Shown piece after piece: positions 1 through 41,141 of a stretch of 41,141 nucleotides of DNA. A program made the position numbers and the translations under genes. Below the pieces are notes generated by a model. The model saw nothing but the letters and a program-made list of their open reading frames with translations. It was not told the DNA's origin and made no database searches. Origin of the DNA: a virus. The stretch is from the IMG/VR virus record IMGVR_UViG_3300045988_104990, positions 1-41,141 of that record; one strand, given 5' to 3'. Within the stretch, counting starts at the first letter, position 1. The number at the start of each line of letters is the position of its first letter.

Positions 1-99
1 TATTGACGACACGAAAGACGCCGATACAGACGAGTACGCAGCTAAGACACAGGGCAAGACAGACCCTGACGCCAAGAAAGACGCAGAGAAGAAAAAAGA
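1..99. repeat. 99-bp terminal overlap, identical to 41043..41141
   Basis: Direct comparison of both window ends: tattgacgacacgaaagacgccgataca...gagaagaaaaaaga occurs at both. Confidence 0.95.
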
Positions 100-3335: not shown

Positions 3336-3511
3336 TTTTAACACGAGGAAAACTTGAAACAATTTTAGCATTTGAAAGAATGAAAATTCGCGCAGAATTA
3401 AAAGGTGAAAGTATATCAAGAGCATACAGGCTGCAAACAGAAATAAACGAGCTTAAGGAAGAAATAGCTAGATTAAAGGAGGCAATTGAGAATGATAGAA
3501 AAACTGATTAA
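3332..3511 (+). CDS. Small coiled-coil protein
   Basis: ATGA start/stop overlap with the upstream gene. 59 aa with a heptad-like charged sequence. The longer 3122 start lies in another gene's interior. Confidence 0.5.
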   Translation: MILTRGKLETILAFERMKIRAELKGESISRAYRLQTEINELKEEIARLKEAIENDRKTD

Positions 3512-3806
3512 CGAAGAACTGCAGAGCGCAAACAAGAAATTCCCGCTGTTTTCGTCTTGGCACGAAGCATATGCGGTAATACTTGAAGAAGTGGAAGAAG
3601 CAAATAACGAAGCCGACGTAATGTGTAATTTATATCTCGACAGACTATGGCACGACATAAAGGCGAAAGCGTCAAGTGAAGCAGACAGATTTGAGGATAT
3701 AGGCATATTAAGAGGGCATGCAGTCAGAGCCATTGAGGAATTAATACAGGTAGCCGCTATGTGCGACAAGGCGGTAATGAGCTTAAGAAAGGAGAGAAAA
3801 GAATAA
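3492..3806 (+). CDS. Hypothetical protein, weak MazG/DUF550-like helical NTP-pyrophosphohydrolase resemblance
   Basis: AGGAGG RBS before ATG 3492. The SWHEAYAVILEEVEEA motif resembles the HEGxAVIxEExDE motif of MazG-like phage proteins. The match is weak. Confidence 0.5.
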   Translation: MIEKLINEELQSANKKFPLFSSWHEAYAVILEEVEEANNEADVMCNLYLDRLWHDIKAKASSEADRFEDIGILRGHAVRAIEELIQVAAMCDKAVMSLRKERKE

Positions 3807-8434: not shown

Positions 8435-8851
8435 GTGCTTGAGAGTTACAGAAAAATCAACGTTGAAGAGTTCTTGAGAGATTACCGGGACAACTGCGCC
8501 AAGCTGGCAGAACTGAAAAGAGAAAAAGACTACCTGCTAGGAGCCGCAGGCGTTGACACAACAAAAGAAACGGTTAAAGGCGCGCCAAGTTCGCCGACAG
8601 AGAACGCAGCGGTGGCAAGAGAACGAATCGACCGCAAGATAGCAGCCCTTGAGGAGTACTTCCGGGCATTCAACGCGGCTATGGACTTTCTTGACGACAC
8701 AGACCGGCAGATAGTCCAAGAGTTCTACGTTGCGAATAACCCGACAGCCCTATCAGCGACAATGCGGCTGCAGCGGTTAGGCTACAGCGACAGAGCTATC
8801 AGAGCGAAGCGAGAAAAGGCGATCAAGCGGTTGTACCACTTTTTCAATTAA
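8435..8851 (+). CDS. ArpU/RinA-like late-gene transcriptional activator (sigma region-4-like)
   Basis: GTG start after AGGAGG. Size of 138 aa, its position as the last gene before the packaging module, and the C-terminal HTH-like LGYSDRAIRAKREKAIKRL. Confidence 0.55.
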   Translation: MLESYRKINVEEFLRDYRDNCAKLAELKREKDYLLGAAGVDTTKETVKGAPSSPTENAAVARERIDRKIAALEEYFRAFNAAMDFLDDTDRQIVQEFYVANNPTALSATMRLQRLGYSDRAIRAKREKAIKRLYHFFN

Positions 8852-8870: not shown

Positions 8871-8899
8871 AGCCCCCTTTACGGGGGCTTTGTGTTTTT
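8871..8899. terminator. Bidirectional rho-independent terminator
   Basis: AGCCCCC-tttac-GGGGGCT, followed by TTGTGTTTTT and preceded by an A-run. It sits between convergent genes. Confidence 0.8.
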
Positions 8900-9062
8900 A
8901 TCTAGCCTCTACTACTTCATACCATGATTCGTAGTAGCTTTCTTTTTCGGCAGCAATCACTGCCGCTTCTTTTTCGGCTTCCTCGAAGCTGTCGGCACAA
9001 ACGCCGTACACCCTTGTTTTGCAGCCGCTTTCGCAGCTTCTGAAGATAACATCATAATTCAT
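8898..9062 (-). CDS. 54-aa acidic Cys-containing protein (not in ORF track)
   Basis: AGGAG RBS. Hand translation gives MNYDVIFRSCESGCKTRVYGVCADSFEEAEKEAAVIAAEKESYYESWYEVVEAR. Confidence 0.5.
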   Translation of the reverse strand: MNYDVIFRSCESGCKTRVYGVCADSFEEAEKEAAVIAAEKESYYESWYEVVEAR

Positions 9063-9077
9063 TGCTTAGCTCCTTTC

Positions 9078-9272
9078 CTATACCTGAAAATCATTATGAC
9101 TTTCTCTATATTCCCGCAGGGCTTTTTTAATTAAGCCCTGCTTATTGTTTGTTTTTGCTAACATATCTAGTATGTCAGCGTCTGTTCGATAATTTAATTT
9201 TATTGTTTGATAGGTCGTGTTTGACCTATCCCACGCCGCCTTTTGGGCGTTTCTTTTTTCCGGGGATACCAT
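9078..9272 (-). CDS. Small protein, possible ribbon-helix-helix DNA-binding fold
   Basis: YQTIKLNYRTDADILDMLAKTNNKQGLIKKALREY resembles Arc/MetJ-type RHH proteins, weakly. Its start overlaps the upstream stop by 1 nt. Confidence 0.5.
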   Translation of the reverse strand: MVSPEKRNAQKAAWDRSNTTYQTIKLNYRTDADILDMLAKTNNKQGLIKKALREYRESHNDFQV

Positions 9273-9454
9273 TACGCCAGTTCCTCTCTTGTGTCGCCTC
9301 GTACAACAGCGTAGAAGTTCGGCTGATACATTCCTTCTTCTTTGTCGTGCGCCTCATATTCAGCTATAAGGGCAAGGCCTGCTTCAACGCTTTCAACTTT
9401 CTCGATTAAGTTGCCGGCTTCTCTGTCGGCTGTCCAAATTTCGTACTTCTTCAT
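9272..9454 (-). CDS. 60-aa strongly acidic protein
   Basis: ORF with GGAGAAAAAAC-ATG RBS. High Glu/Asp content. Confidence 0.55.
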   Translation of the reverse strand: MKKYEIWTADREAGNLIEKVESVEAGLALIAEYEAHDKEEGMYQPNFYAVVRGDTREELA

Positions 9455-9512
9455 TGTTTTTTCTCCTTTTCTTTTTATTATGCCCCTGTAAGGGGGCGAG
9501 TGTCAATTGTTT

Positions 9513-9776
9513 TTAGAAGCTTATCGCTTCGCCTACAGCTTCATAGCTTGTAAGCAGGTGATACTTTAACGCCTTGTAGCTGTCAAGGTTCTTTGCAATC
9601 AGGTCCTTGACAACGTCCTTGTTTACCTTGACGTTCAATCTGTCGACAACGCCGAACATAAACTCAACGTTGTACAGTCCGGGCGAATCGTAATAATTCG
9701 ACAGAACGTTATATGCAATTTTTTGTTCGCCGCAGCACACCTCACGCGCCACGTTTCTTATTTTTGTTGTTTTCAT
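9513..9776 (-). CDS. Hypothetical protein
   Basis: GGAGG RBS before the ATG at 9776. 87 aa. Confidence 0.55.
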   Translation of the reverse strand: MKTTKIRNVAREVCCGEQKIAYNVLSNYYDSPGLYNVEFMFGVVDRLNVKVNKDVVKDLIAKNLDSYKALKYHLLTSYEAVGEAISF

Positions 9777-9849
9777 TTCATTACCTCCATTGCTTAGCCT
9801 GTTTCGCTCTTGCTCATCAGTGCCGGACTTTTACCGGCAGACAGGGGGG

Positions 9850-10005
9850 CTATATCCTAACCCCTAACAGCATACAAGTACGTTTTGCCTCGCAGAGTGT
9901 GAGCCAGTTCTCAGAGCTCATGTCTGCTATGTAGTTGGCTCTTGCTTTCATATATACTGCCTTTGCCTCGGCTTTTCTGTCTTCTAACTGTTTTAAATGT
10001 GTCAT
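9850..10005 (-). CDS. 51-aa protein
   Basis: GGAGGTG RBS 6 nt before the internal ATG at 10005 (MTHLKQLEDRK...). The longer 10074 start would overlap the upstream gene. Confidence 0.5.
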   Translation of the reverse strand: MTHLKQLEDRKAEAKAVYMKARANYIADMSSENWLTLCEAKRTCMLLGVRI

Positions 10006-10007
10006 CT

Positions 10008-10169
10008 TTACACCTCCCACGCTTCCGCTTCTTCTAATGTGCGGAAGTATTTTCCGCAGCCGCAGTAGCACCAAGTCTTACCGCCGTCTATGCTGCGCCA
10101 TATCTGCGCATTGTAGTTATAACCGTCTACTGGAAGCTCTAGCTTCTTTATTTCTTTCTTTTCTAACAT
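10008..10169 (-). CDS. 53-aa protein (not in ORF track)
   Basis: GGAGAAAAC RBS. Hand translation gives MLEKKEIKKLELPVDGYNYNAQIWRSIDGGKTWCYCGCGKYFRTLEEAEAWEV. Confidence 0.5.
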   Translation of the reverse strand: MLEKKEIKKLELPVDGYNYNAQIWRSIDGGKTWCYCGCGKYFRTLEEAEAWEV

Positions 10170-10225: not shown

Positions 10226-10255
10226 ATCATAGCACCGCACCCCCGGAGCTGTCAA
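10226..10255 (-). promoter_or_regulatory. Sigma-70-type promoter driving the minus-strand small-gene cassette
   Basis: On the minus strand: TTGACA (10255..10250), an 18-nt spacer, then TATGAT (10231..10226). It lies about 60 nt upstream of the first cassette gene. Confidence 0.6.
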
Positions 10256-10290
10256 CACTTTTTTTCAAAGTTTTTTCAAAAACCGCTGAG

Positions 10291-10309
10291 ACCGTTGAAA
10301 TTCCAACGA
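10291..10309. repeat. 19-bp element ACCGTTGAAATTCCAACGA containing palindrome CGTTG-n6-CAACG (copy 1)
   Basis: Identical at 18 of 19 positions to 11158..11176. The internal inverted repeat was read directly. Confidence 0.85.
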
Positions 10310-10498
10310 AAAAATTTTGAAAATGTGCCAACAGGAAGCCAAGCGGCGCGCATATAATGTATTATAATATATATAAATAAAAGTATTTCTTCTAAAACTG
10401 ATTGTTTCATAGTTTTAATTTACTCCTTGAAAATTATTCGGACGACAGCGGGACAAAATCCTGCTGTTTTTCGTTATACAGGAGGAAAGGGGGCACAT

Positions 10499-11011
10499 AT
10501 GGCAGTAATAGAGACAACAGCACAGGTAATAGACATAGAGGCCCCAGGGGGCAAGGTAGATCGCCGTAAGGGCAGAGGCAGGGGCTTCGGAACTGGAGCA
10601 GGCAGCAAGAGAGCCTTTGAGAGCGGCCAACAGCTGATAGATGAACTCGAAAAGTACTGCGACTACCTCAAGAGTACTAACTATCAGGAGTACCCAACCA
10701 AGATGGGATTTGCTGACTTCTGCGGGAAGAACAGATCCACCGTATGGAATGCTGTTAATAACTTTTACCCGGAAATAAAGAAACAATGGCAAGAGACTAT
10801 AGAGCAAGTACTAGTTAACGGCGTTAATGCAGGAGTATATCACGTTACCATGACTATATTCATACTTAAGAACTGGTGCGAATGGACGGATAAAAGGGAA
10901 ACTGTCACGACTGAAAAAAAGCCCGCAATCGCTTCAAAACAGGAGCTTCGGGACGCTATACAGCAGTACTTGCAAGCGCCAATAGAGGAAGACAGCGAGC
11001 AGACAGAGTAA
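10499..11011 (+). CDS. terS: Terminase small subunit
   Basis: AGGAGG RBS before ATG 10499. P-T-K-x-GFADFCG-x-NRSTVW HTH-like segment and FILKNWCEWTDKRE, typical of Terminase_2-type small subunits. Located upstream of terL. Confidence 0.75.
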   Translation: MAVIETTAQVIDIEAPGGKVDRRKGRGRGFGTGAGSKRAFESGQQLIDELEKYCDYLKSTNYQEYPTKMGFADFCGKNRSTVWNAVNNFYPEIKKQWQETIEQVLVNGVNAGVYHVTMTIFILKNWCEWTDKRETVTTEKKPAIASKQELRDAIQQYLQAPIEEDSEQTE

Positions 11012-11012
11012 A

Positions 11013-11155
11013 GCATAAACATACATTCGTTTGTATAAAAGTATCAGAATATCCCGAGGAAATACCTCAAATATTGCATAAACAGCGTATATCCATTGCA
11101 TAAAGCAGCATAACAGAATATGCATAGATACAGCATATAGACCATAAAACAGCTA
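11013..11155 (+). repeat. Array of 5-6 degenerate GCATAAAC(AGC)-like repeats downstream of terS
   Basis: GCATAAAC at 11013. ATTGCATAAACAGC at 11074. ATTGCATAAAGCAGC at 11095, which is 21 bp later. GCATAACAG at 11107, TGCATAGATACAGC at 11121, CCATAAAACAGC at 11142. Confidence 0.7.
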
Positions 11156-11157
11156 TA

Positions 11158-11176
11158 ACCGTTGAAATACCAACGA
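11158..11176. repeat. 19-bp element ACCGTTGAAATACCAACGA (copy 2)
   Basis: 18 of 19 positions match 10291..10309. The two copies bracket terS. Confidence 0.85.
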
Positions 11177-11199
11177 TTACAGGCAATACAGGCATGCAA

Positions 11200-11229
11200 C
11201 TATTCCGAAGATAAGGATTTTCGGAATAG
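11200..11229 (+). promoter_or_regulatory. Perfect 10-bp stem hairpin CTATTCCGAA-n10-TTCGGAATAG
   Basis: Read directly. Followed by only a short T-run, so its function (terminator or protein site) is unclear. Confidence 0.6.
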
Positions 11230-11442
11230 TTTAAACATACATATACCCCGAAGAAATTTTTTTGAGGGGTACAGGGGGGACTGGGGGATACCGGGGTACC
11301 GGGTAGTGAATACCGGTATGGTCCGGAGAGTAAGTATCAAATCTGAAACGACCCCCTCGTCGAAATCTTCCCCCGTAGGTAGGGTACCTCACCCGTGCAA
11401 CCCAATTTCAAAACACCCCCTACCAAAAAATAGGTGGTATAT

Positions 11443-11512
11443 GCCGACGTAGCTCAGATGGTAAGTCCCGTTAAGCACAAGGTCGCAGGTTCAAGTCCTG
11501 CTGTCGGCGCCA
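11443..11512 (+). tRNA. tRNA-like element or degenerate tRNA: acceptor stem, T-arm and encoded CCA intact, but no foldable anticodon arm
   Basis: GCCGACG pairs with TGTCGGC for a 7-bp acceptor stem. The T-arm is GCAGG-TTCAAGT-CCTGC, followed by discriminator G and CCA. The D-loop start is GCTCAGATGGTA. Only 67 nt lie before CCA. No 5-bp stem with a 7-nt loop can be drawn in positions 14-42. Confidence 0.45.
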
Positions 11513-11564
11513 GCAATCCATATAATTACCTCCGAAGCATTTCGGGAAAATCCTTTTAAGTCGT

Positions 11565-11592
11565 GGCAGGAGACTGAAAACCCTGCCTTTTA
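11565..11592 (+). terminator. Hairpin plus T-run downstream of the tRNA-like element
   Basis: GGCAGG-n11-CCTGCC followed by TTTTAAT. Confidence 0.5.
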
Positions 11593-11594
11593 AT

Positions 11595-11762
11595 ATGATA
11601 GTAGACATAAATAAAAACAGGCCACACGAAGTATCAGAGCTTATCTGTTTAAAGTGCCTGCACAGATGGATAGGAGTATATCCGAAAGACACGCCATTAA
11701 AAGACATTGTATGTGTATGCGGTGAAAGCGGCTATGTAATAAAAACAGGGCAGACATTATGA
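11595..11762 (+). CDS. Possible 55-aa CxxC..CxC protein upstream of terL (not in ORF track)
   Basis: Hand translation gives MIVDINKNRPHEVSELICLKCLHRWIGVYPKDTPLKDIVCVCGESGYVIKTGQTL. ATGA overlap with the terL start. No convincing RBS. Confidence 0.35.
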   Translation: MIVDINKNRPHEVSELICLKCLHRWIGVYPKDTPLKDIVCVCGESGYVIKTGQTL

Positions 11763-13216
11763 ATGAAGAACAACTGTACCGAATGATACTGCAAAACGAC
11801 TACGCAGAGTATGTGCAGTATACATCTAGGGGACAATGGAAAAAGACAAAATTTCATAGATACCTGTGCGAAGCAGTACAGAGCTTCATTGAAACCGATA
11901 CGGGACATGCTGCAGACATACTTGTTTTATCGGTCCCGCCGCAACACGGCAAGAGCGTTACCATAACAGAGAGCTTAGTGTCATGGTATATGGGAAAGCA
12001 CCCAAACCATTCCTGCATAATAGCCTCATACAATACAGACTTTGCGGAGAGGTTCGGCAGACGTAACAAAGAGAAGATAGAGCAGTACGGAGAGGCGATA
12101 TTCGGCATAAGCGTCGGCGGTAAAAGCTCCAATCAGGAGTTTGAATTAGACGGAACAGCAGGTAGATGTGTCTCAAGAGGTATGCTGTCGGGTATTACAG
12201 GTAACTCCGGTCACTTAATCATCATAGACGACCCTTTAAAGACAAAAGAGGAAGCGTATTCGCAGACCACAAGGGACAAGCTGTGGGAAGAATGGAGTTT
12301 CTCCATCAAGTCACGTTATCAGGACGTAACAAAAGTAGTTGTGATAATGACGCGCTGGCACGATGACGACTTAGCAGGTCGGATAATCAAGAATGAAAAC
12401 AACGTCACTGTAATAAACCTGCCCTTAGAAGCAGAAGCTGACGATCCGTTAGGGCGTAAAGTCGGAGATTCCCTGTGCCCTGAGCTCGGCAAAGACAACG
12501 CATGGGTAAAGGAATTCAAAGAGGGCTTCCTAAAGACCGAGGGTGGAACAATGGCGTGGAATGCTTTAATGCAGGGACACCCGACATCAGAAGATGGCAA
12601 CATGCTTAAAAGGGAGTGGTGGCAGTACTACGACGAACTGCCCGAATGCGGCGACTGGCTTATGAGCGTTGACGCAGCCTTTAAAGACGGAGACGACAAC
12701 GACTATGTAGCAATACAGGTATGGGGCAAACGAGACGCCAACATGTATCTTATCGACCGAGTTAAAAAGCACCTTGATTTTCCGTCCACATTAAGAGAGA
12801 TAAGACGTCTGAGAGGGCTTTATCCGAAAGTAAAACAGGTACTGATAGAAGACAAGGCAAACGGTTCTGCTGCAATACAGGTTTTAAGACGTGAAATGCA
12901 TGGCGTAATAGGAATCAATCCGCAGGGCGGTAAAGTTTCAAGAGTAAACGCAGTATCGGGCGCAATAGAAAGCGGTAACGTATGGCTTCCGAAAAACAAA
13001 GTATGGACACACGAATTTGTTGACGAATGCGCGGCGTTTCCTAACGGCGTACACGATGACGAAGTAGACTGCTGCTCACAGGCATTAACAAGATTTATGT
13101 ATTATCGCGGCAAAGTGCCGGAGATGATAAAAAAGAAGAAGACACTATCCGACGTATTCAATATGGGTACGAAAAGAAAGAGATTAGACATAGGAGACAG
13201 AATCAATGTTGTATAG
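11759..13216 (+). CDS. terL: Terminase large subunit
   Basis: Walker A-like SVPPQHGKS, Walker B LIIIDDPLK, coupling motif TRWHDDDL. C-terminal nuclease acidic residues (SVDAAFKDGDDNDY, HDDEVD). Confidence 0.95.
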   Translation: MNEEQLYRMILQNDYAEYVQYTSRGQWKKTKFHRYLCEAVQSFIETDTGHAADILVLSVPPQHGKSVTITESLVSWYMGKHPNHSCIIASYNTDFAERFGRRNKEKIEQYGEAIFGISVGGKSSNQEFELDGTAGRCVSRGMLSGITGNSGHLIIIDDPLKTKEEAYSQTTRDKLWEEWSFSIKSRYQDVTKVVVIMTRWHDDDLAGRIIKNENNVTVINLPLEAEADDPLGRKVGDSLCPELGKDNAWVKEFKEGFLKTEGGTMAWNALMQGHPTSEDGNMLKREWWQYYDELPECGDWLMSVDAAFKDGDDNDYVAIQVWGKRDANMYLIDRVKKHLDFPSTLREIRRLRGLYPKVKQVLIEDKANGSAAIQVLRREMHGVIGINPQGGKVSRVNAVSGAIESGNVWLPKNKVWTHEFVDECAAFPNGVHDDEVDCCSQALTRFMYYRGKVPEMIKKKKTLSDVFNMGTKRKRLDIGDRINVV

Positions 13217-34423: not shown

Positions 34424-34632
34424 CATAAAAGTACTAAAAAGGTACTAAAAAGTTATTTAAAACGCTTTTTTTCGCATATAATAGCCAAAATCAGCGTATT
34501 AAAAACGTTGAAATATCAATATTCATCAAAATCTATCAAATTCCAAGAGTTACTAGCTAACTAGCTTTATAGTGATATTATACTGTAAATTTCAACATTT
34601 TGCAAGATACAAAGTACTAAAAAGGTACTATT
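34424..34632. repeat. attP-like region: 20-bp direct repeats AAAGTACTAAAAAGGTACTA (34428, 34611), built from 11-bp GTACTAAAAAG units, flanking an AT-rich segment
   Basis: Repeats were read directly. The second copy abuts the integrase stop codon. Between them lie ACTAGCT-A-ACTAGCT (34552-34566) and three (T/C)ATCAA(A/T) motifs. Confidence 0.6.
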
Positions 34633-35647
34633 CTATCATAGAAACAAACTCTTCCTGTTTGTTCGGATAAAGATGGGAATATGTAGCAAGGGCTGTTCCC
34701 GGTGTGTCGCCAAGTCTTTCAGCGACAAGCAGTATATTACAGCCAAGCTCAATCATCATAGAAGCATGAGAATGTCTCAAGTCGTGCATTCTGATAACAG
34801 GCAAGTCCTGTTCTGCCAATGCACGTCTAAACTCATTCCTTAGTGGTGTTCTACTGGCTTTGAACAGCGTGTCAGACGGCGTCAAGCCATACCTTGCATT
34901 TATATAGTCCCTAAGTTCATCAACAAGGAAGCCGGGAATAATAACCTTGCGTATGGAATTAGGTGTTTTTGGCTTTGTAACTACTTTCCTTTGGGATATG
35001 TTTTTGTTTATGTTAATGCTTTTGTTCTCCAAATCTATATCTGCTAGCGTCAGGGCGAGACATTCCCCTAGACGCATGCCCGTATAAAATAGAGTATCAA
35101 ACACAGCTTTGTATGTAAGGTTGGAGAATTTAAGCTGTTCGTATTGTTCTCGTGTAAGTATTGTATAGTTGCGTTTTTCTTTTGGTACAATATGCTTTGC
35201 AGTTCTGACGGGGTTTTCCTGCAGACCGCAAAAGGTGATCCCCCAGTTAATAATGCAGCTTAAAACTGCGGTTATATTTCTAATGGTGGTTGAAGCAAGC
35301 CCCTTTTTCTGCAGAGAGTACTGCCAGTTCTTAATTGCAAGAGGTGTTACCTCAGACGCAGAACACTTGAAAAAACCGAGAATATGGTTGTCTGCCATAG
35401 ATTTATGTTTAATGTATGTGCTTTCTTTTACCCTTGCCTTTAAGTCCACAAGATACTTATTAACAAGGGTGTCAAAGCTAATATCGTTGTTGACAGCAGC
35501 GTGATTTTCAATAAAATCTCTTTCCCACGCAAGAGCTTCTTTTCTCAAGTCAAAGCCTGACTTCTTCTTCTGCTTTCTTTCTCCCGAATAGTCTTTATAG
35601 TAGAATTTGCAGTACCATTTCCCGTTTTTGTCTTTATATGCAGGCAT
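34628..35647 (-). CDS. int: Tyrosine integrase
   Basis: N-terminal arm-binding-type MPAYKDKNGKWYCKFYYKDYSGERKQKKKSGF. C-terminal catalytic RLGE...HDLRHSHAS...LGDTPGTALATYSHLY. Confidence 0.95.
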   Translation of the reverse strand: MPAYKDKNGKWYCKFYYKDYSGERKQKKKSGFDLRKEALAWERDFIENHAAVNNDISFDTLVNKYLVDLKARVKESTYIKHKSMADNHILGFFKCSASEVTPLAIKNWQYSLQKKGLASTTIRNITAVLSCIINWGITFCGLQENPVRTAKHIVPKEKRNYTILTREQYEQLKFSNLTYKAVFDTLFYTGMRLGECLALTLADIDLENKSININKNISQRKVVTKPKTPNSIRKVIIPGFLVDELRDYINARYGLTPSDTLFKASRTPLRNEFRRALAEQDLPVIRMHDLRHSHASMMIELGCNILLVAERLGDTPGTALATYSHLYPNKQEEFVSMIE

Positions 35648-40720: not shown

Positions 40721-41141
40721 CGATACAAAGTGAGCTGAAAGCACCGAAAGGGCAGTACAACAGCTTCGGGGAATACAAATACAGGAGTGCAGAGGATATT
40801 CTTGAAGCGGTAAAGCCGCTATGCGTAAAGCACAATGTACTGCTGACGCTGACAGACAGCATAGAGCTGATAGGCGAAAGGTACTATGTCAAGGCAACAG
40901 CAAGGGTATCAGACGGGACAAAGGCTGTAGAGGTTACGGCACTGGCTAGAGAAGACCTTGACAAAAAGGGTATGGACGGCTCACAGATAACAGGCACAGC
41001 GTCATCGTATGCTAGAAAATACGCCCTTAACGGACTGTTCTGTATTGACGACACGAAAGACGCCGATACAGACGAGTACGCAGCTAAGACACAGGGCAAG
41101 ACAGACCCTGACGCCAAGAAAGACGCAGAGAAGAAAAAAGA
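40705..41141 (+). CDS. erf: ERF-family single-strand annealing recombinase, N-terminal part (runs off the window, continues at 1..310)
   Basis: IQSELKAPKGQYNSFGEYKYRSAEDILEAVKPL...IGERYYVKATA...KKGMDGSQITGTASSYARKYALNGLFCIDDTKDADT closely parallels P22 Erf. Confidence 0.9.
   Translation, partial: MDKLIAIQSELKAPKGQYNSFGEYKYRSAEDILEAVKPLCVKHNVLLTLTDSIELIGERYYVKATARVSDGTKAVEVTALAREDLDKKGMDGSQITGTASSYARKYALNGLFCIDDTKDADTDEYAAKTQGKTDPDAKKDAEKKK
41043..41141. repeat. 99-bp terminal overlap, identical to 1..99
   Basis: Same as above. The ERF reading frame is continuous through it. Confidence 0.95.

What the first reader, a model, noticed from the sequence alone, without database searches (positions are those of the whole stretch)
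11012..11758. terS and terL are separated by about 750 bp of non-coding DNA packed with repeats, G/C-run hairpins and a tRNA-like element
Terminase subunit genes are normally adjacent or overlapping. Here the gap contains several distinct elements. There is a CATAAA(C)AG(C) repeat array at 11013-11155, including ATTGCATAAA twice exactly 21 bp apart. There is a palindrome-bearing 19-mer at 11158 and a perfect 10-bp hairpin at 11200-11229. A G-run/C-run region at 11245-11440 carries three (A/G)TACCGG(G/T) repeats and potential long-range GAGGGG (11263)/CCCCTC (11354) pairing. An ACCCCCTA-n8-TAGGTGGT hairpin lies just before the tRNA-like element. The 96-aa ORF called here (11162-11452) has a TTG start and looks non-coding. 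The region could hold the pac site and/or a structured ncRNA processed together with the tRNA-like element.
Basis: seen in the sequence. Interest (0 to 1): 0.65.

Follow-up and report, generated by a model that had tools for sequence, protein, structure and literature searches.

The report
Terminase-gap leader with decayed tRNA
The gap between this phage's two DNA-packaging genes is a mosaic: a conserved non-coding leader that sits in front of the large terminase gene in a small phage clade, a slot for phage tRNA genes that here holds a tRNA-Asn crippled by a 7-base deletion, and an inserted small gene. It is moderately interesting and built mostly from known kinds of parts.

Summary
The gap is real (11012-11758), but it is not 750 bp of non-coding DNA and it is not one element.

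- **Small gene.** 11595-11762 is a real 55-aa gene. It is an indel, absent from many relatives.
- **tRNA-like element.** 11443-11512 is a tRNA-Asn(GUU) that has lost 7 nt (D-stem 3' strand and anticodon-stem 5' strand). The same slot in relatives holds intact tRNA-Thr(UGU) and/or tRNA-Asn(GUU), other anticodon-less derivatives, or nothing. The acceptor and T arms of the remnant are invariant while the flanks vary, so it may still act as an RNA-processing signal.
- **Conserved leader.** 11012-11442 is non-coding and conserved across the clade. It always lies upstream of terL, and in tRNA-less relatives it directly abuts terL.
- **No support for pac.** Two terS alleles with different helix-turn-helix regions share the same gap. 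In more distant relatives, related sequence motifs lie more than 1 kb upstream of an adjacent terS-terL pair.
- **RNA evidence is weak.** No Rfam family other than tRNA matches, and covariation is inconclusive.

My best reading is a cis-acting late-mRNA leader for terL, with an upstream promoter/operator-like part, into which a dynamic tRNA cassette was inserted. Its function is inferred, not shown.

The parts
10279..10309 (+). Copy 1 of a 31-nt direct repeat upstream of terS. Its core is the 16-bp palindrome CGTTGAAATTCCAACG (10293-10308). It lies between a minus-strand promoter-like site TTGACA-N18-TATGAT (10257-10228) and a plus-strand TATAAT (10353-10358).
   Evidence: scan on relative L001.
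10499..11011 (+). terS (170 aa). It is a P22 gp3-like small terminase, supported only by weak matches.
   Evidence: PF16677 E=4.4e-4, below the Pfam cutoff; phrog_606 E=5.3e-6. Two alleles exist among relatives.
11013..11155 (+). AT-rich array of short GCATA(A)(A)CAG(C)-type repeats spaced 10-22 nt apart. It is a candidate binding region for a late activator.
   Evidence: 6 GCATA against 0.23 expected. Conserved in close relatives. Each distant lineage has its own short repeats at this place.
11146..11176 (+). Copy 2 of the 31-nt repeat (84% identical to copy 1). Its core palindrome is CGTTGAAATACCAACG (11160-11175). TTGAAA resembles a -35 hexamer.
   Evidence: In L001 both copies score as promoter-like at 9 of 12, but the number of such sites is not above shuffles.
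11198..11231 (+). H1, a 34-nt quasi-palindrome (AACTATTCC...GGAATAGTT). It is the most widely conserved motif of the gap.
   Evidence: Found in L010, L014, L127, L345 and L346. The arms are conserved as sequence, and position 10 of each arm varies independently.
11244..11271 (+). H2, a hairpin UACCCC/GGGGUA that encloses the T7 run.
   Evidence: L345 has AUGCACC/GGUGCAU around its T-run, and L347 repairs an internal mismatch (read from the sequence).
11264..11333 (+). G-run cluster (GGGG, GGGGGG, GGGGG, GGGG), three TACCGG repeats and a hypervariable patch (about 11305-11330).
   Evidence: The patch has two haplotypes with no compensating changes, and the G-runs are absent in L346.
11334..11442 (+). 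C-rich conserved block. It contains small hairpin H3 (11337-11346), ACGA-CCCCC-TCGT (11348-11360), GGTAGGG (11378-11384), CCCTACC (11418-11424) and TAGGTGGT (11431-11438).
   Evidence: 96% identical to L006 where coding DNA is about 80%. The motifs are invariant or nearly so in 14 sequences (one mismatch in L346's GGTAGGG). CCCTACC is complementary both to GGTAGGG and to TAGGTGG. In L346 the block ends 12 nt before the terL ATG.
11443..11512 (+). tRNA-Asn(GUU) remnant with encoded CCA. A 7-nt deletion (AGCAGGT) lies between 11465 and 11466. The acceptor stem and T arm are intact, and there is no anticodon stem.
11531..11546 (+). Small hairpin UCCGAA-GCAU-UUCGGG downstream of the tRNA slot.
   Evidence: Read from the sequence. 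Conserved in relatives that carry tRNAs.
11565..11594 (+). H7, hairpin GGCAGG-N11-CCTGCC followed by TTTTAAT, directly before the ancestral terL start codon. The only AGGAG lies inside it.
   Evidence: Core invariant except for loop substitutions in L001-L007, L344, L345 and L347. In L345 it is followed by CCCCCTAT, so it is not a conserved terminator.
11595..11762 (+). Inserted small gene for a 55-aa CxxC...CxC protein. Its stop codon overlaps the terL ATG (ATGA).
   Evidence: 270 homologous protein clusters. Elsewhere the homologues sit among small early genes. Present in window, L007, L125 and L344; absent in L001-L006, L124 and L345-L347.
11759..13216 (+). terL, the large terminase subunit.
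   Evidence: PF03237 and PF17289; phrog_38 E=1.8e-101.

Best explanation
The gap is a composite of three things.

**1. A late-mRNA leader for terL (11012-11442).** This clade-specific non-coding module has two parts.
[quoted passage not shown] It looks like a promoter/operator region.
- The downstream part holds the H2 hairpin, G-runs and a C-rich block that ends in ACCCCCTACC-N6-TAGGTGGT. I infer that this part acts in cis on the plus-strand RNA and sets translation, processing or stability of terL.

**2. A tRNA slot inserted in the leader, right after TAGGTGGTATAT.** I infer that the slot once held tRNA-Thr(UGU), with or without a third tRNA-like element, plus tRNA-Asn(GUU). In this genome only a tRNA-Asn with a 7-nt deletion is left. 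It cannot decode. It keeps an intact acceptor/T-arm minihelix plus CCA, which is the minimal substrate for RNase P and 3' processing. I infer that it still works as a cleavage 'punctuation' mark between the leader and the terL message.

**3. A mobile 55-aa gene inserted at the terL start codon**, now translationally coupled to terL.

**Shown:** the anatomy, the homology, the indels, the conservation pattern and the non-coding status. **Inferred:** transcription of the leader as RNA, RNase P/Z cleavage, and any regulatory effect on terL.
For: **Anatomy and tRNA origin**
- Searches give the layout. Searches show that L002 equals the L125 tRNA-Asn minus AGCAGGT.
- Searches show that L347 carries Thr+Asn, that L344, L348 and L349 carry Thr+X+Asn, and that L345 and L346 carry none.

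**The leader abuts terL when the slot is empty**
- In L346 the sequence reads TAGGTGGTCAAGAGAAATT|ATG.
- In L345 it reads TAGGTGGT, then 27 nt, then H7, then ATG.

**Constraint**
- The C-rich block is 96% identical to L006, where terS and terL DNA is 70-84%.
- Its motifs are invariant or nearly so in 14 sequences that span 76-99% TerL identity.

**Non-coding status**
- There are frame-breaking indels and no family match.
- A 1-nt indel separates L010 from L014 in the conserved tail.

**Local hairpins with some compensating changes**
- H3 changes G-C to A-U in the window. H3 in L345, H2 in L345 and a register shift of H4 in L345 and L347 also compensate.
- Four pairs change on both sides, against 1.6 in shuffles; 11 of 500 shuffles reach that number.

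**tRNA remnant under constraint**
- Among the window, L001 and L002 there are 3 variable sites, all within 11460-11470, and none in the other 59 nt.
- The flanks have 12-16% variable sites.
- A second, independent derivative (L007 and L125, from tRNA-Thr) has its anticodon arm replaced by CCGAAAGG and is otherwise identical to the intact gene.
- L127 has a third anticodon-less tRNA-like element.

**Promoter-like upstream part**
- A RinA/ArpU-like gene lies at 8435-8851. Such activators bind DNA repeats upstream of the late operon (PMC3753634).
- In L001 both palindrome copies score as TTGAAA-N16/18 promoter-like sites.
Against: - There is no transcript data.
- RNAalifold covariation terms are positive, meaning no support, on both strands. 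Consensus energies are equal at -66.1 and -65.3 kcal/mol.
- The covariation score is not above shuffles; 160 of 500 shuffles reach it.
- Sub-regions do not fold better than shuffles, with z between +0.35 and -0.9.
- Conservation is mostly of sequence, not of pairing. That fits protein-binding DNA equally well.
- Promoter-like sites are not more frequent than in shuffled sequence.
- In the window itself the -10-like hexamer (CAATAC) fails the scan.
- The order of H1 and the palindrome is swapped in L010, L014 and L127. This argues that those two are DNA sites rather than parts of one RNA fold.
- The invariance of the tRNA remnant could reflect a recent spread of one allele by recombination rather than selection.
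Confidence: 0.5

Rival explanations
1. The gap holds the pac site. TerS binds the repeats, palindromes or G/C runs, and TerL makes the first headful cut here.
For: - The region is next to terS.
- It holds phased short repeats and inverted repeats, and the densest G/C-run cluster in the genome.
- The C-run/T-run/G-run layout (11246-11269) superficially recalls the herpesvirus pac1 signal (my own knowledge).
- TerL's nearest isolated relatives (at most 46% identity) are Staphylococcus, Bacillus and Listeria phages. The genome assembles as a circle, which is compatible with headful packaging.
Against: - terS alleles A and B differ through the putative helix-turn-helix (NRSTVWNAVNN against DPKTIWLTIER) but share an 86-100% identical gap. 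In P22-type systems pac lies inside terS (my own knowledge), and that is exactly the segment swapped here.
- In L127 and L008, motifs related to the leader lie more than 1 kb upstream of terS, separated from it by promoter-like sites, terminator-like hairpins, tRNAs or ORFs.
- The 16-bp palindrome is not specific to this phage. It occurs in more than 119 viral contigs in 83 distinct contexts.
Confidence: 0.13
2. Most of the conserved sequence is regulatory DNA. It would be a second late promoter with activator repeats and operators (repeat array, palindrome, H1), and the rest would be spacer. On this view nothing acts as a folded RNA.
For: - The 31-nt repeat is shared with the terS promoter region.
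- A RinA/ArpU-like gene is present, and the literature describes repeat-binding late activators.
- The motifs are conserved as sequence without covariation.
- H1 and the palindrome swap order between lineages.
Against: - The best-conserved part is the 3' C-rich block (11334-11442), 150-250 nt downstream of the promoter-like part and flush against terL or the tRNA slot. That position suits a leader, not a promoter.
- Some hairpins show compensating changes.
- The promoter-like scores are weak.
Confidence: 0.25
3. 11190-11442 encodes a free-standing small or structured RNA. Its 3' end would be made by RNase P cleavage at the tRNA(-like) element, and it would act in trans, for example through its C-rich motifs on G-rich ribosome-binding sites.
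For: - Five conserved C-runs fall within 90 nt.
- terS has a GGGGG-type ribosome-binding site.
- Conservation runs right up to the tRNA 5' end.
- Large phage RNAs (ROOL, GOLLD) are often next to tRNA islands (PMC12286853).
Against: - No Rfam match.
- In L345, L346, L010 and L014 there is no tRNA to define a 3' end.
- No promoter or terminator pair brackets the region.
- No covariation.
Confidence: 0.12
4. The tRNA-like element is just a dead gene, a recent deletion in a dispensable phage tRNA with no remaining role. The tRNA slot exists for codon supply or to replace tRNAs cut by host anticodon nucleases.
For: - A simple 7-nt deletion explains it.
- Slot content varies freely among close relatives, including empty slots.
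- ACA makes up 60% of Thr codons.
- Thr(UGU) and Asn(GUU) are two of the three main targets of the PARIS nuclease AriB (PMC12409363).
Against: - All 3 variable sites sit in an 11-nt stretch, and none in the other 59 nt, although the flanks vary at 12-16% of sites.
- The truncated allele is found with both terS alleles.
- Anticodon-arm loss with otherwise perfect arms has happened at least twice more.
Confidence: 0.35

Closest known systems
Phage-encoded tRNA genes and tRNA islands, including decayed copies
   Same: [quoted passage not shown] It shares their acceptor stem, T arm and CCA exactly.
   Different: It lacks an anticodon stem and cannot decode. It sits between terS and terL. Its surviving arms look constrained.
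tRNA-like processing signals: the RNase P-processed C4 RNA precursor of phages P1/P7, mascRNA at the MALAT1 3' end, and tRNA 'punctuation' of mitochondrial transcripts (my own knowledge)
   Same: An acceptor/T-arm minihelix with CCA is embedded in a longer transcript, where cleavage would separate an upstream RNA from a downstream message.
   Different: No cleavage has been shown here. The element is visibly derived from a decoding tRNA by a recent deletion.
Late promoter regions of Gram-positive phages controlled by RinA/ArpU/Ltr activators (PMC3753634)
   Same: [quoted passage not shown] Short DNA repeats and a weak promoter-like site lie in front of packaging genes.
   Different: In the described systems the site lies upstream of terS. 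Here a partial duplicate also lies downstream of terS. The matches to RinA and ArpU are below the curated cutoffs.
pac sites of headful phages: P22 gene 3 and SPP1 pacL/pacC/pacR (my own knowledge)
   Same: Proximity to terS, with repeats and inverted repeats.
   Different: The region is not linked to the terS allele. Related motifs lie far upstream of terS in relatives. No end mapping is available.
ROOL and GOLLD, large phage RNAs near tRNA islands (PMC12286853)
   Same: A conserved non-coding phage sequence immediately next to tRNA genes.
   Different: No match to the Rfam models. It is much shorter (about 250-430 nt) and has no ornate covarying structure.
Ribosome-binding-site sequestering leaders (translational switches)
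   Same: CCCTACC can pair either with the upstream GGTAGGG or with the downstream TAGGTGG. In L346 the TAGGTGG lies 12 nt before the terL ATG.
   Different: There is no covariation and no excess stability. In most genomes tRNAs separate TAGGTGG from terL, and no ligand or trigger is known.

Membership tests
tRNA (Rfam RF00005) | Score at or above the curated gathering threshold | tested here: met
   34.1 bits against 29.
tRNA (Rfam RF00005) | Complete cloverleaf with a 5-bp anticodon stem and 7-nt loop | tested here: not met
   13 nt where the model has 18. ARAGORN finds no gene. The fold shows only the acceptor stem, T arm and one odd central hairpin.
tRNA (Rfam RF00005) | Orthology to a functional tRNA gene | tested here: met
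   Same slot and flanks as the intact tRNA-Asn(GTT) in L003, L007, L125, L344 and L347. L002 differs from the L125 copy only by the deletion of AGCAGGT.
RNase P/RNase Z substrate (tRNA-like processing signal) | 7-bp acceptor stem stacked on a T stem-loop, with 3' NCCA | tested here: met
   GCCGACG/UGUCGGC, GCAGG-UUCAAGU-CCUGC, then G-CCA.
RNase P/RNase Z substrate (tRNA-like processing signal) | Cleavage at the mature ends in vivo or in vitro | not testable with these tools
   No transcript or enzyme data.
pac site of a headful phage | Recognition sequence co-inherited with the TerS DNA-binding domain | tested here: not met
   Two terS alleles with different helix-turn-helix regions share the same gap.
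pac site of a headful phage | The first packaging cut maps here | not testable with these tools
   No reads or virion DNA. Contig starts are arbitrary permutations, and the window has a 99-nt terminal overlap.
Any described structured RNA family (Rfam 15, including ROOL, GOLLD, riboswitches and T-box) | Match to a covariance model | tested here: not met
   Only tRNA at E of 10 or less in 10300-12300, and at gathering score in the whole window and in relatives.
Structured non-coding RNA (generic) | Base pairs kept through compensating changes beyond chance | tested here: inconclusive
   Four pairs change on both sides against 1.6 in shuffles (11 of 500 shuffles reach this). The covariation score is not above shuffles (160 of 500). 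The two strands are indistinguishable.
Ltr (RinA/ArpU)-dependent late promoter | [quoted passage not shown] | tested here: inconclusive
   8435-8851 matches TIGR01636 at 29.3 bits (cutoff 31.9), TIGR01637 at 25.7 bits (cutoff 43.1), and phrog_36 and phrog_248.
Ltr (RinA/ArpU)-dependent late promoter | DNA repeats upstream of a weak promoter, with an activator-dependent start site | tested here: inconclusive
   The repeats are present. TTGAAA-N16-CATTAT scores 9 of 12 in L001, but the window's own hexamer fails. The start site cannot be tested.
Intrinsic terminator (for hairpin 11565-11594) | G+C-rich hairpin followed by a conserved U tract | tested here: not met
   The hairpin is conserved, but in L345 it is followed by CCCCCTAT. 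The scan does not list it.

The most novel reading that the evidence does not exclude
Anticodon-less tRNA-like elements are made repeatedly from phage tRNA genes in this leader and are kept by selection. At least three independent cases are seen: Asn-derived here, Thr-derived in L007 and L125, and a mini element in L127. They would serve either as RNase P/Z punctuation that separates a conserved regulatory leader RNA from the terL message, or as non-decoding decoys for host anticodon nucleases. The slot's intact genes, Thr(UGU) and Asn(GUU), are two of the three main PARIS/AriB targets. The invariant GGTAGGG / CCCTACC / TAGGTGG triad would then be a new kind of switch that controls large-terminase expression.
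Probability: 0.2. Interest if true: 0.65.

Novelty: new variant of a known kind. Interest (0 to 1): 0.45.

Why it matters
Terminase genes are usually adjacent, and their relative dosage matters for packaging. A conserved leader wedged between them, or in front of them in relatives, points to a layer of control over large-terminase expression. No described family or paper found here covers it for this clade of uncultured, probably clostridial, temperate phages.

The tRNA slot shows how fast phage tRNA cassettes turn over. Among genomes with 76-99% identical TerL it holds Thr, Asn, both, truncated forms or nothing. It also offers a natural series for asking whether a tRNA that has lost its anticodon arm is kept as a processing signal or decoy.

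For annotation, the practical lesson is that a tRNA-model match at threshold can be a non-decoding remnant, and that a 'non-coding gap' can hide a real 55-aa gene.

Tried and rejected
- **Rfam.** At a permissive E-value on 10300-12300 and at gathering score on the whole window and on relatives, only tRNA matched.
- **DNA search of deposited phage genomes.** No match.
- **Species-representative genomes.** The best TerL relative is only 38% identical, so the host was not identified. The only named relative is a Christensenellales MAG at 56% identity.
- **PDB sequence searches.** TerL gave no hit and TerS only chance-level hits (E>=0.1).
- **Metagenome contig scan by TerL.** It added only three close contigs and L127.
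- **Pattern scan for TCGTAA-N-CCCCACTSGTT in viral contigs.** It returned only chance or coding hits apart from the contig already known.
- **Literature search for the palindrome sequence.** Nothing found.
- **Coding reading of the 96-aa ORF and of minus-strand ORFs.** Rejected, because of indels, a lack of three-base periodicity in the variable patch, and no family hits.
- **Long-range G-run/C-run helix.** Rejected as a conserved feature. It is broken in L006, and L346 has no G-runs.
- **G-quadruplex as the conserved feature.** Rejected, because L010, L008 and L346 lack four G-tracts.
- **The element as attP.** Rejected. The integrase lies 23 kb away and the slot holds whole tRNA genes.
- **TGGTATAT as an extended -10 promoter for the tRNA.** Rejected, because the transcription start would fall inside the tRNA.
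- **Shared contig ends of L003 and L125 near window 10355 as a physical genome end.** Not pursued. They fall in a low-complexity TATAAT-rich stretch and are more likely assembly breaks.
Full report
**Setting.** The window is a complete temperate phage genome assembled as a circle. Its first 99 nt are repeated exactly at the end.
- It encodes a tyrosine integrase (34628-35647, minus strand), a portal protein and a T4-type large terminase (11759-13216).
- The 170-aa protein at 10499-11011 matches P22 gp3-type small terminases only weakly.
- No deposited phage shares DNA with the terS-terL region.
- The closest isolated phages reach at most 46% TerL identity. They are Staphylococcus epidermidis, Bacillus megaterium and Listeria phages.
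- Species-representative genomes hold nothing closer than 38%.

**Observation.**
- GCATA occurs six times in 143 nt against 0.23 expected.
- Eight G or C runs of 4 or more fall within 250 nt, the maximum in the genome.
- There are three TACCGG repeats, the 19-mer palindrome, and the perfect hairpin, which extends to 11198-11231.
- Three corrections apply. The ATTGCATAAA copies are 22 nt apart, not 21. Two coordinates are off by one. The last 168 nt are coding.

**The small gene.** ORF 11595-11762 encodes a 55-aa CxxC...CxC protein.
- It has 270 homologous protein clusters in metagenomes at 70-98% identity.
- In other phages the homologues sit in arrays of small early genes, not near terminase.
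- In relatives L001-L006, L124 and L345-L347 it is absent, and the sequence before it joins directly to the terL ATG.
- It is therefore a mobile small gene inserted at the terL start codon, with an ATGA stop/start overlap. Its function is unknown.

**The tRNA-like element.**
- Rfam's tRNA model scores 34.1 bits (cutoff 29), with 13 nt where the anticodon arm needs 18. ARAGORN calls nothing.
- Relatives with 76-99% identical TerL carry real genes at exactly this place, between ...TAGGTGGTATAT and GCAATCCA....
  - tRNA-Asn(GTT) alone: L003.
  - tRNA-Thr(TGT) alone: L004, L005, L124.
  - Both adjacent: L347.
  - Thr, then a third tRNA-like element, then Asn: L344, L348, L349.
  - A Thr derivative whose anticodon arm is replaced by CCGAAAGG, then the third element, then Asn: L007, L125.
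  - A decayed third element: L006.
  - Nothing: L345, L346.
- The window, L001 and L002 share a tRNA-Asn that lacks AGCAGGT, the 3' strand of the D stem plus the 5' strand of the anticodon stem. L002 is the exact deletion product of the L125 copy.
- The element is therefore a tRNA-Asn(GUU) remnant that cannot decode.
- Its decay is not uniform. Among the three truncated copies, all 3 variable sites lie within 11460-11470 and none in the other 59 nt. Flanking non-coding blocks have 12-16% variable sites.
- The acceptor stem, T arm and CCA, which form the minimal RNase P substrate by established knowledge, are intact.
- Together with two further anticodon-less derivatives (L007/L125 and L127 1268-1330), this suggests a retained role as an RNA-processing signal. 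It does not prove one. Recent spread of a single allele is the alternative.

**The conserved non-coding module (11012-11442).**
- It is non-coding. Relatives have 1-7 nt indels, the hypervariable patch at about 11305-11330 shows no three-base periodicity, and no ORF matches a family.
- It is conserved in every relative down to 76% TerL identity.
- Against L006, whose terS and terL DNA is 70-84% identical, the block at 11350-11400 is 96% identical.
- Across 14 sequences these motifs are invariant or nearly so: the H1 arms, ATCCGAAACGACCCCCTC, GGTAGGG (one mismatch in L346), ACCT, ACCCCCTACC and TAGGTGGT.
- Related motifs recur in the 59-62% TerL lineages. These are H1, the palindrome, a G-run followed by TCGTAA-N-CCCCACT(C/G)GTT, and GGGTAGGTAG.
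  - In L010 and L014 they lie between terS and terL, without a tRNA.
  - In L127, L008 and L009 terS and terL are adjacent, and the motifs lie more than 1 kb upstream of terS. In L127 they come with two tRNAs and a mini tRNA-like element.
- The relatives without a tRNA are the most informative.
  - In L346 the module ends ...ACCCCCTACCCAAAAATAGGTGGTCAAGAGAAATT, followed directly by the terL ATG.
  - In L345 TAGGTGGT is followed by 27 nt, the GGCAGG...CCTGCC hairpin and the ATG.
- The module is therefore the sequence immediately in front of terL, and the tRNA cassette is an insertion into it.

**RNA or DNA?**
- *For an RNA-level role.* The position is that of a 5' leader. Conservation runs right up to the tRNA or terL boundary. 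Several local hairpins show compensating changes:
  - H3 changes G-C to A-U in the window and U-A to C-G in L345.
  - H2 reads UACCCC/GGGGUA here and AUGCACC/GGUGCAU in L345.
  - H4 shifts register in L345 and L347.
  - CCCTACC can pair alternatively with the upstream GGTAGGG or with the downstream, Shine-Dalgarno-like TAGGTGG.
- *Against.* Covariation terms are not favourable. The two strands score alike. On a hand-specified six-hairpin structure, four pairs change on both sides against 1.6 in shuffles, but the covariation score is not above shuffles. The sub-regions are no more stable than shuffled sequence.
- The upstream third looks more like DNA sites.
  - The 31-nt repeat is a partial duplicate of the terS promoter region.
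  - H1 and the palindrome swap order between lineages, and the H1 arms are conserved as sequence rather than as pairs.
  - A RinA/ArpU-like gene is present. Such activators bind repeats in front of the late operon (PMC3753634).
- I therefore read the gap as a promoter/operator-like part (about 11013-11235) followed by a transcribed leader (about 11240-11594). This reading carries moderate confidence.

**Why not pac?**
- Relatives carry two terS alleles that differ throughout the putative helix-turn-helix, yet share an 86-100% identical gap and upstream region.
- The segment that is exchanged is the interior of terS. That is where P22-type phages keep pac (my own knowledge).
- In L127 and L008, the related motifs are separated from terS by promoter-like sites, terminator-like hairpins, tRNAs or ORFs.
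- The 16-bp palindrome is not specific to this phage.
- Only end mapping can exclude pac. I give it about 13%.

**Comparison with known systems.**
- The tRNA remnant is a new member of a known kind: phage tRNA genes and their decayed copies.
- If functional, it would work like the RNase P-dependent tRNA-like signals known from P1/P7 C4 RNA, from mascRNA, or from mitochondrial punctuation (my own knowledge).
- The leader matches no described RNA family. ROOL and GOLLD share only the neighbourhood of tRNA islands (PMC12286853).
- The intact slot genes, Thr(UGU) and Asn(GUU), are two of the three main targets of the PARIS nuclease AriB (PMC12409363). They also fit the phage's codon use, where ACA makes up 60% of Thr codons. 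Either could explain why the slot exists.

**Verdict.** The finding is a moderately interesting, clade-specific variant of known themes. The open question is what the invariant C-rich leader does.

Noticed in passing
Eighteen of these have at least 3 further complementary flanking pairs. Many sit between an A-run and a T-run, or directly after a tRNA 3' end (for example L244, L252, L294 and L308), as if the motif were the conserved tip of terminator-like hairpins. No paper contains the sequence.
   Followed up: partly
L005 2813-5275; also L006 and proteins P0121, P0125: In some relatives TerL is about 810-820 aa because a roughly 335-aa intein with a LAGLIDADG homing endonuclease (LLAGLIDTDG, ends in HN followed by S) is inserted in the Walker A motif (PPQHGK|...|SVTITE).
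   Followed up: partly
window 10531-10766 and the equivalent region in L002, L003, L005, L007, L124 and L125: terS exists as two alleles that differ mainly in an N-terminal insertion and the putative helix-turn-helix, flanked by nearly identical non-coding DNA. This looks like a cassette exchange, possibly carrying its own pac site.
   Followed up: partly
window 10228-10257 (minus strand) and 8898-10169: A near-consensus promoter TTGACA-N18-TATGAT, also conserved in L014, drives a minus-strand cluster of five small ORFs (53-87 aa, no family matches). The cluster lies between the RinA/ArpU-like gene and terS and is a moron-like insert.
   Followed up: no
window 8435-8851: [quoted passage not shown]
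   Followed up: partly
window 10444-10472: A hairpin plus T5 lies directly upstream of the terS ribosome-binding site. Its 3' half (AAATCCTGCTGT) resembles the T-arm/acceptor 3' strand of the tRNA-Asn (AAGTCCTGCTGT). It may be a terminator/attenuator or a relic of another tRNA.
   Followed up: no
L344, L347, L348, L349 (slot between TAGGTGGTATAT and GTAATCCA): [quoted passage not shown] These are two of the three main tRNA targets of the PARIS nuclease AriB. The Thr gene has the U36-A-A-U-C|A41 sequence at which E. coli AriB cuts.
   Followed up: partly
L127 1268-1330; L007 3283-3349 and about 3450-3520: Further tRNA-like elements have normal acceptor and T arms but abnormal middles. One has a 6-bp stem with an AGGGG loop, one has CC-GAAA-GG, and one has a 6-nt 'anticodon' loop and no variable region.
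   Followed up: partly
L127 about 985-1160; L008 about 2415-2545: A homologous strong promoter (TTGAnACCAGTCTCA...TGnTATAAT) is followed by a short non-coding stretch and an intrinsic terminator. In L127 the stretch is a C-run cluster flanked by GAAAGAGAGAGAGAAAG repeats. These are candidate small RNAs in the same upstream region.
   Followed up: no
L014 1307-1370 (minus strand): A type II hammerhead ribozyme (52.7 bits, cutoff 37) lies in the prophage related to this clade.
   Followed up: no
window 1-99 and 41043-41141: An exact 99-nt terminal overlap shows that the window is a circularly assembled complete genome of about 41,042 bp.
   Followed up: yes
window 11610-11627 and 11738-11755: An 18-nt direct repeat (AATAAAAACAGGsCAsAC) lies inside the 55-aa gene, near its start and near its end. 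It may be a footprint of how the gene was inserted or duplicated.
   Followed up: no
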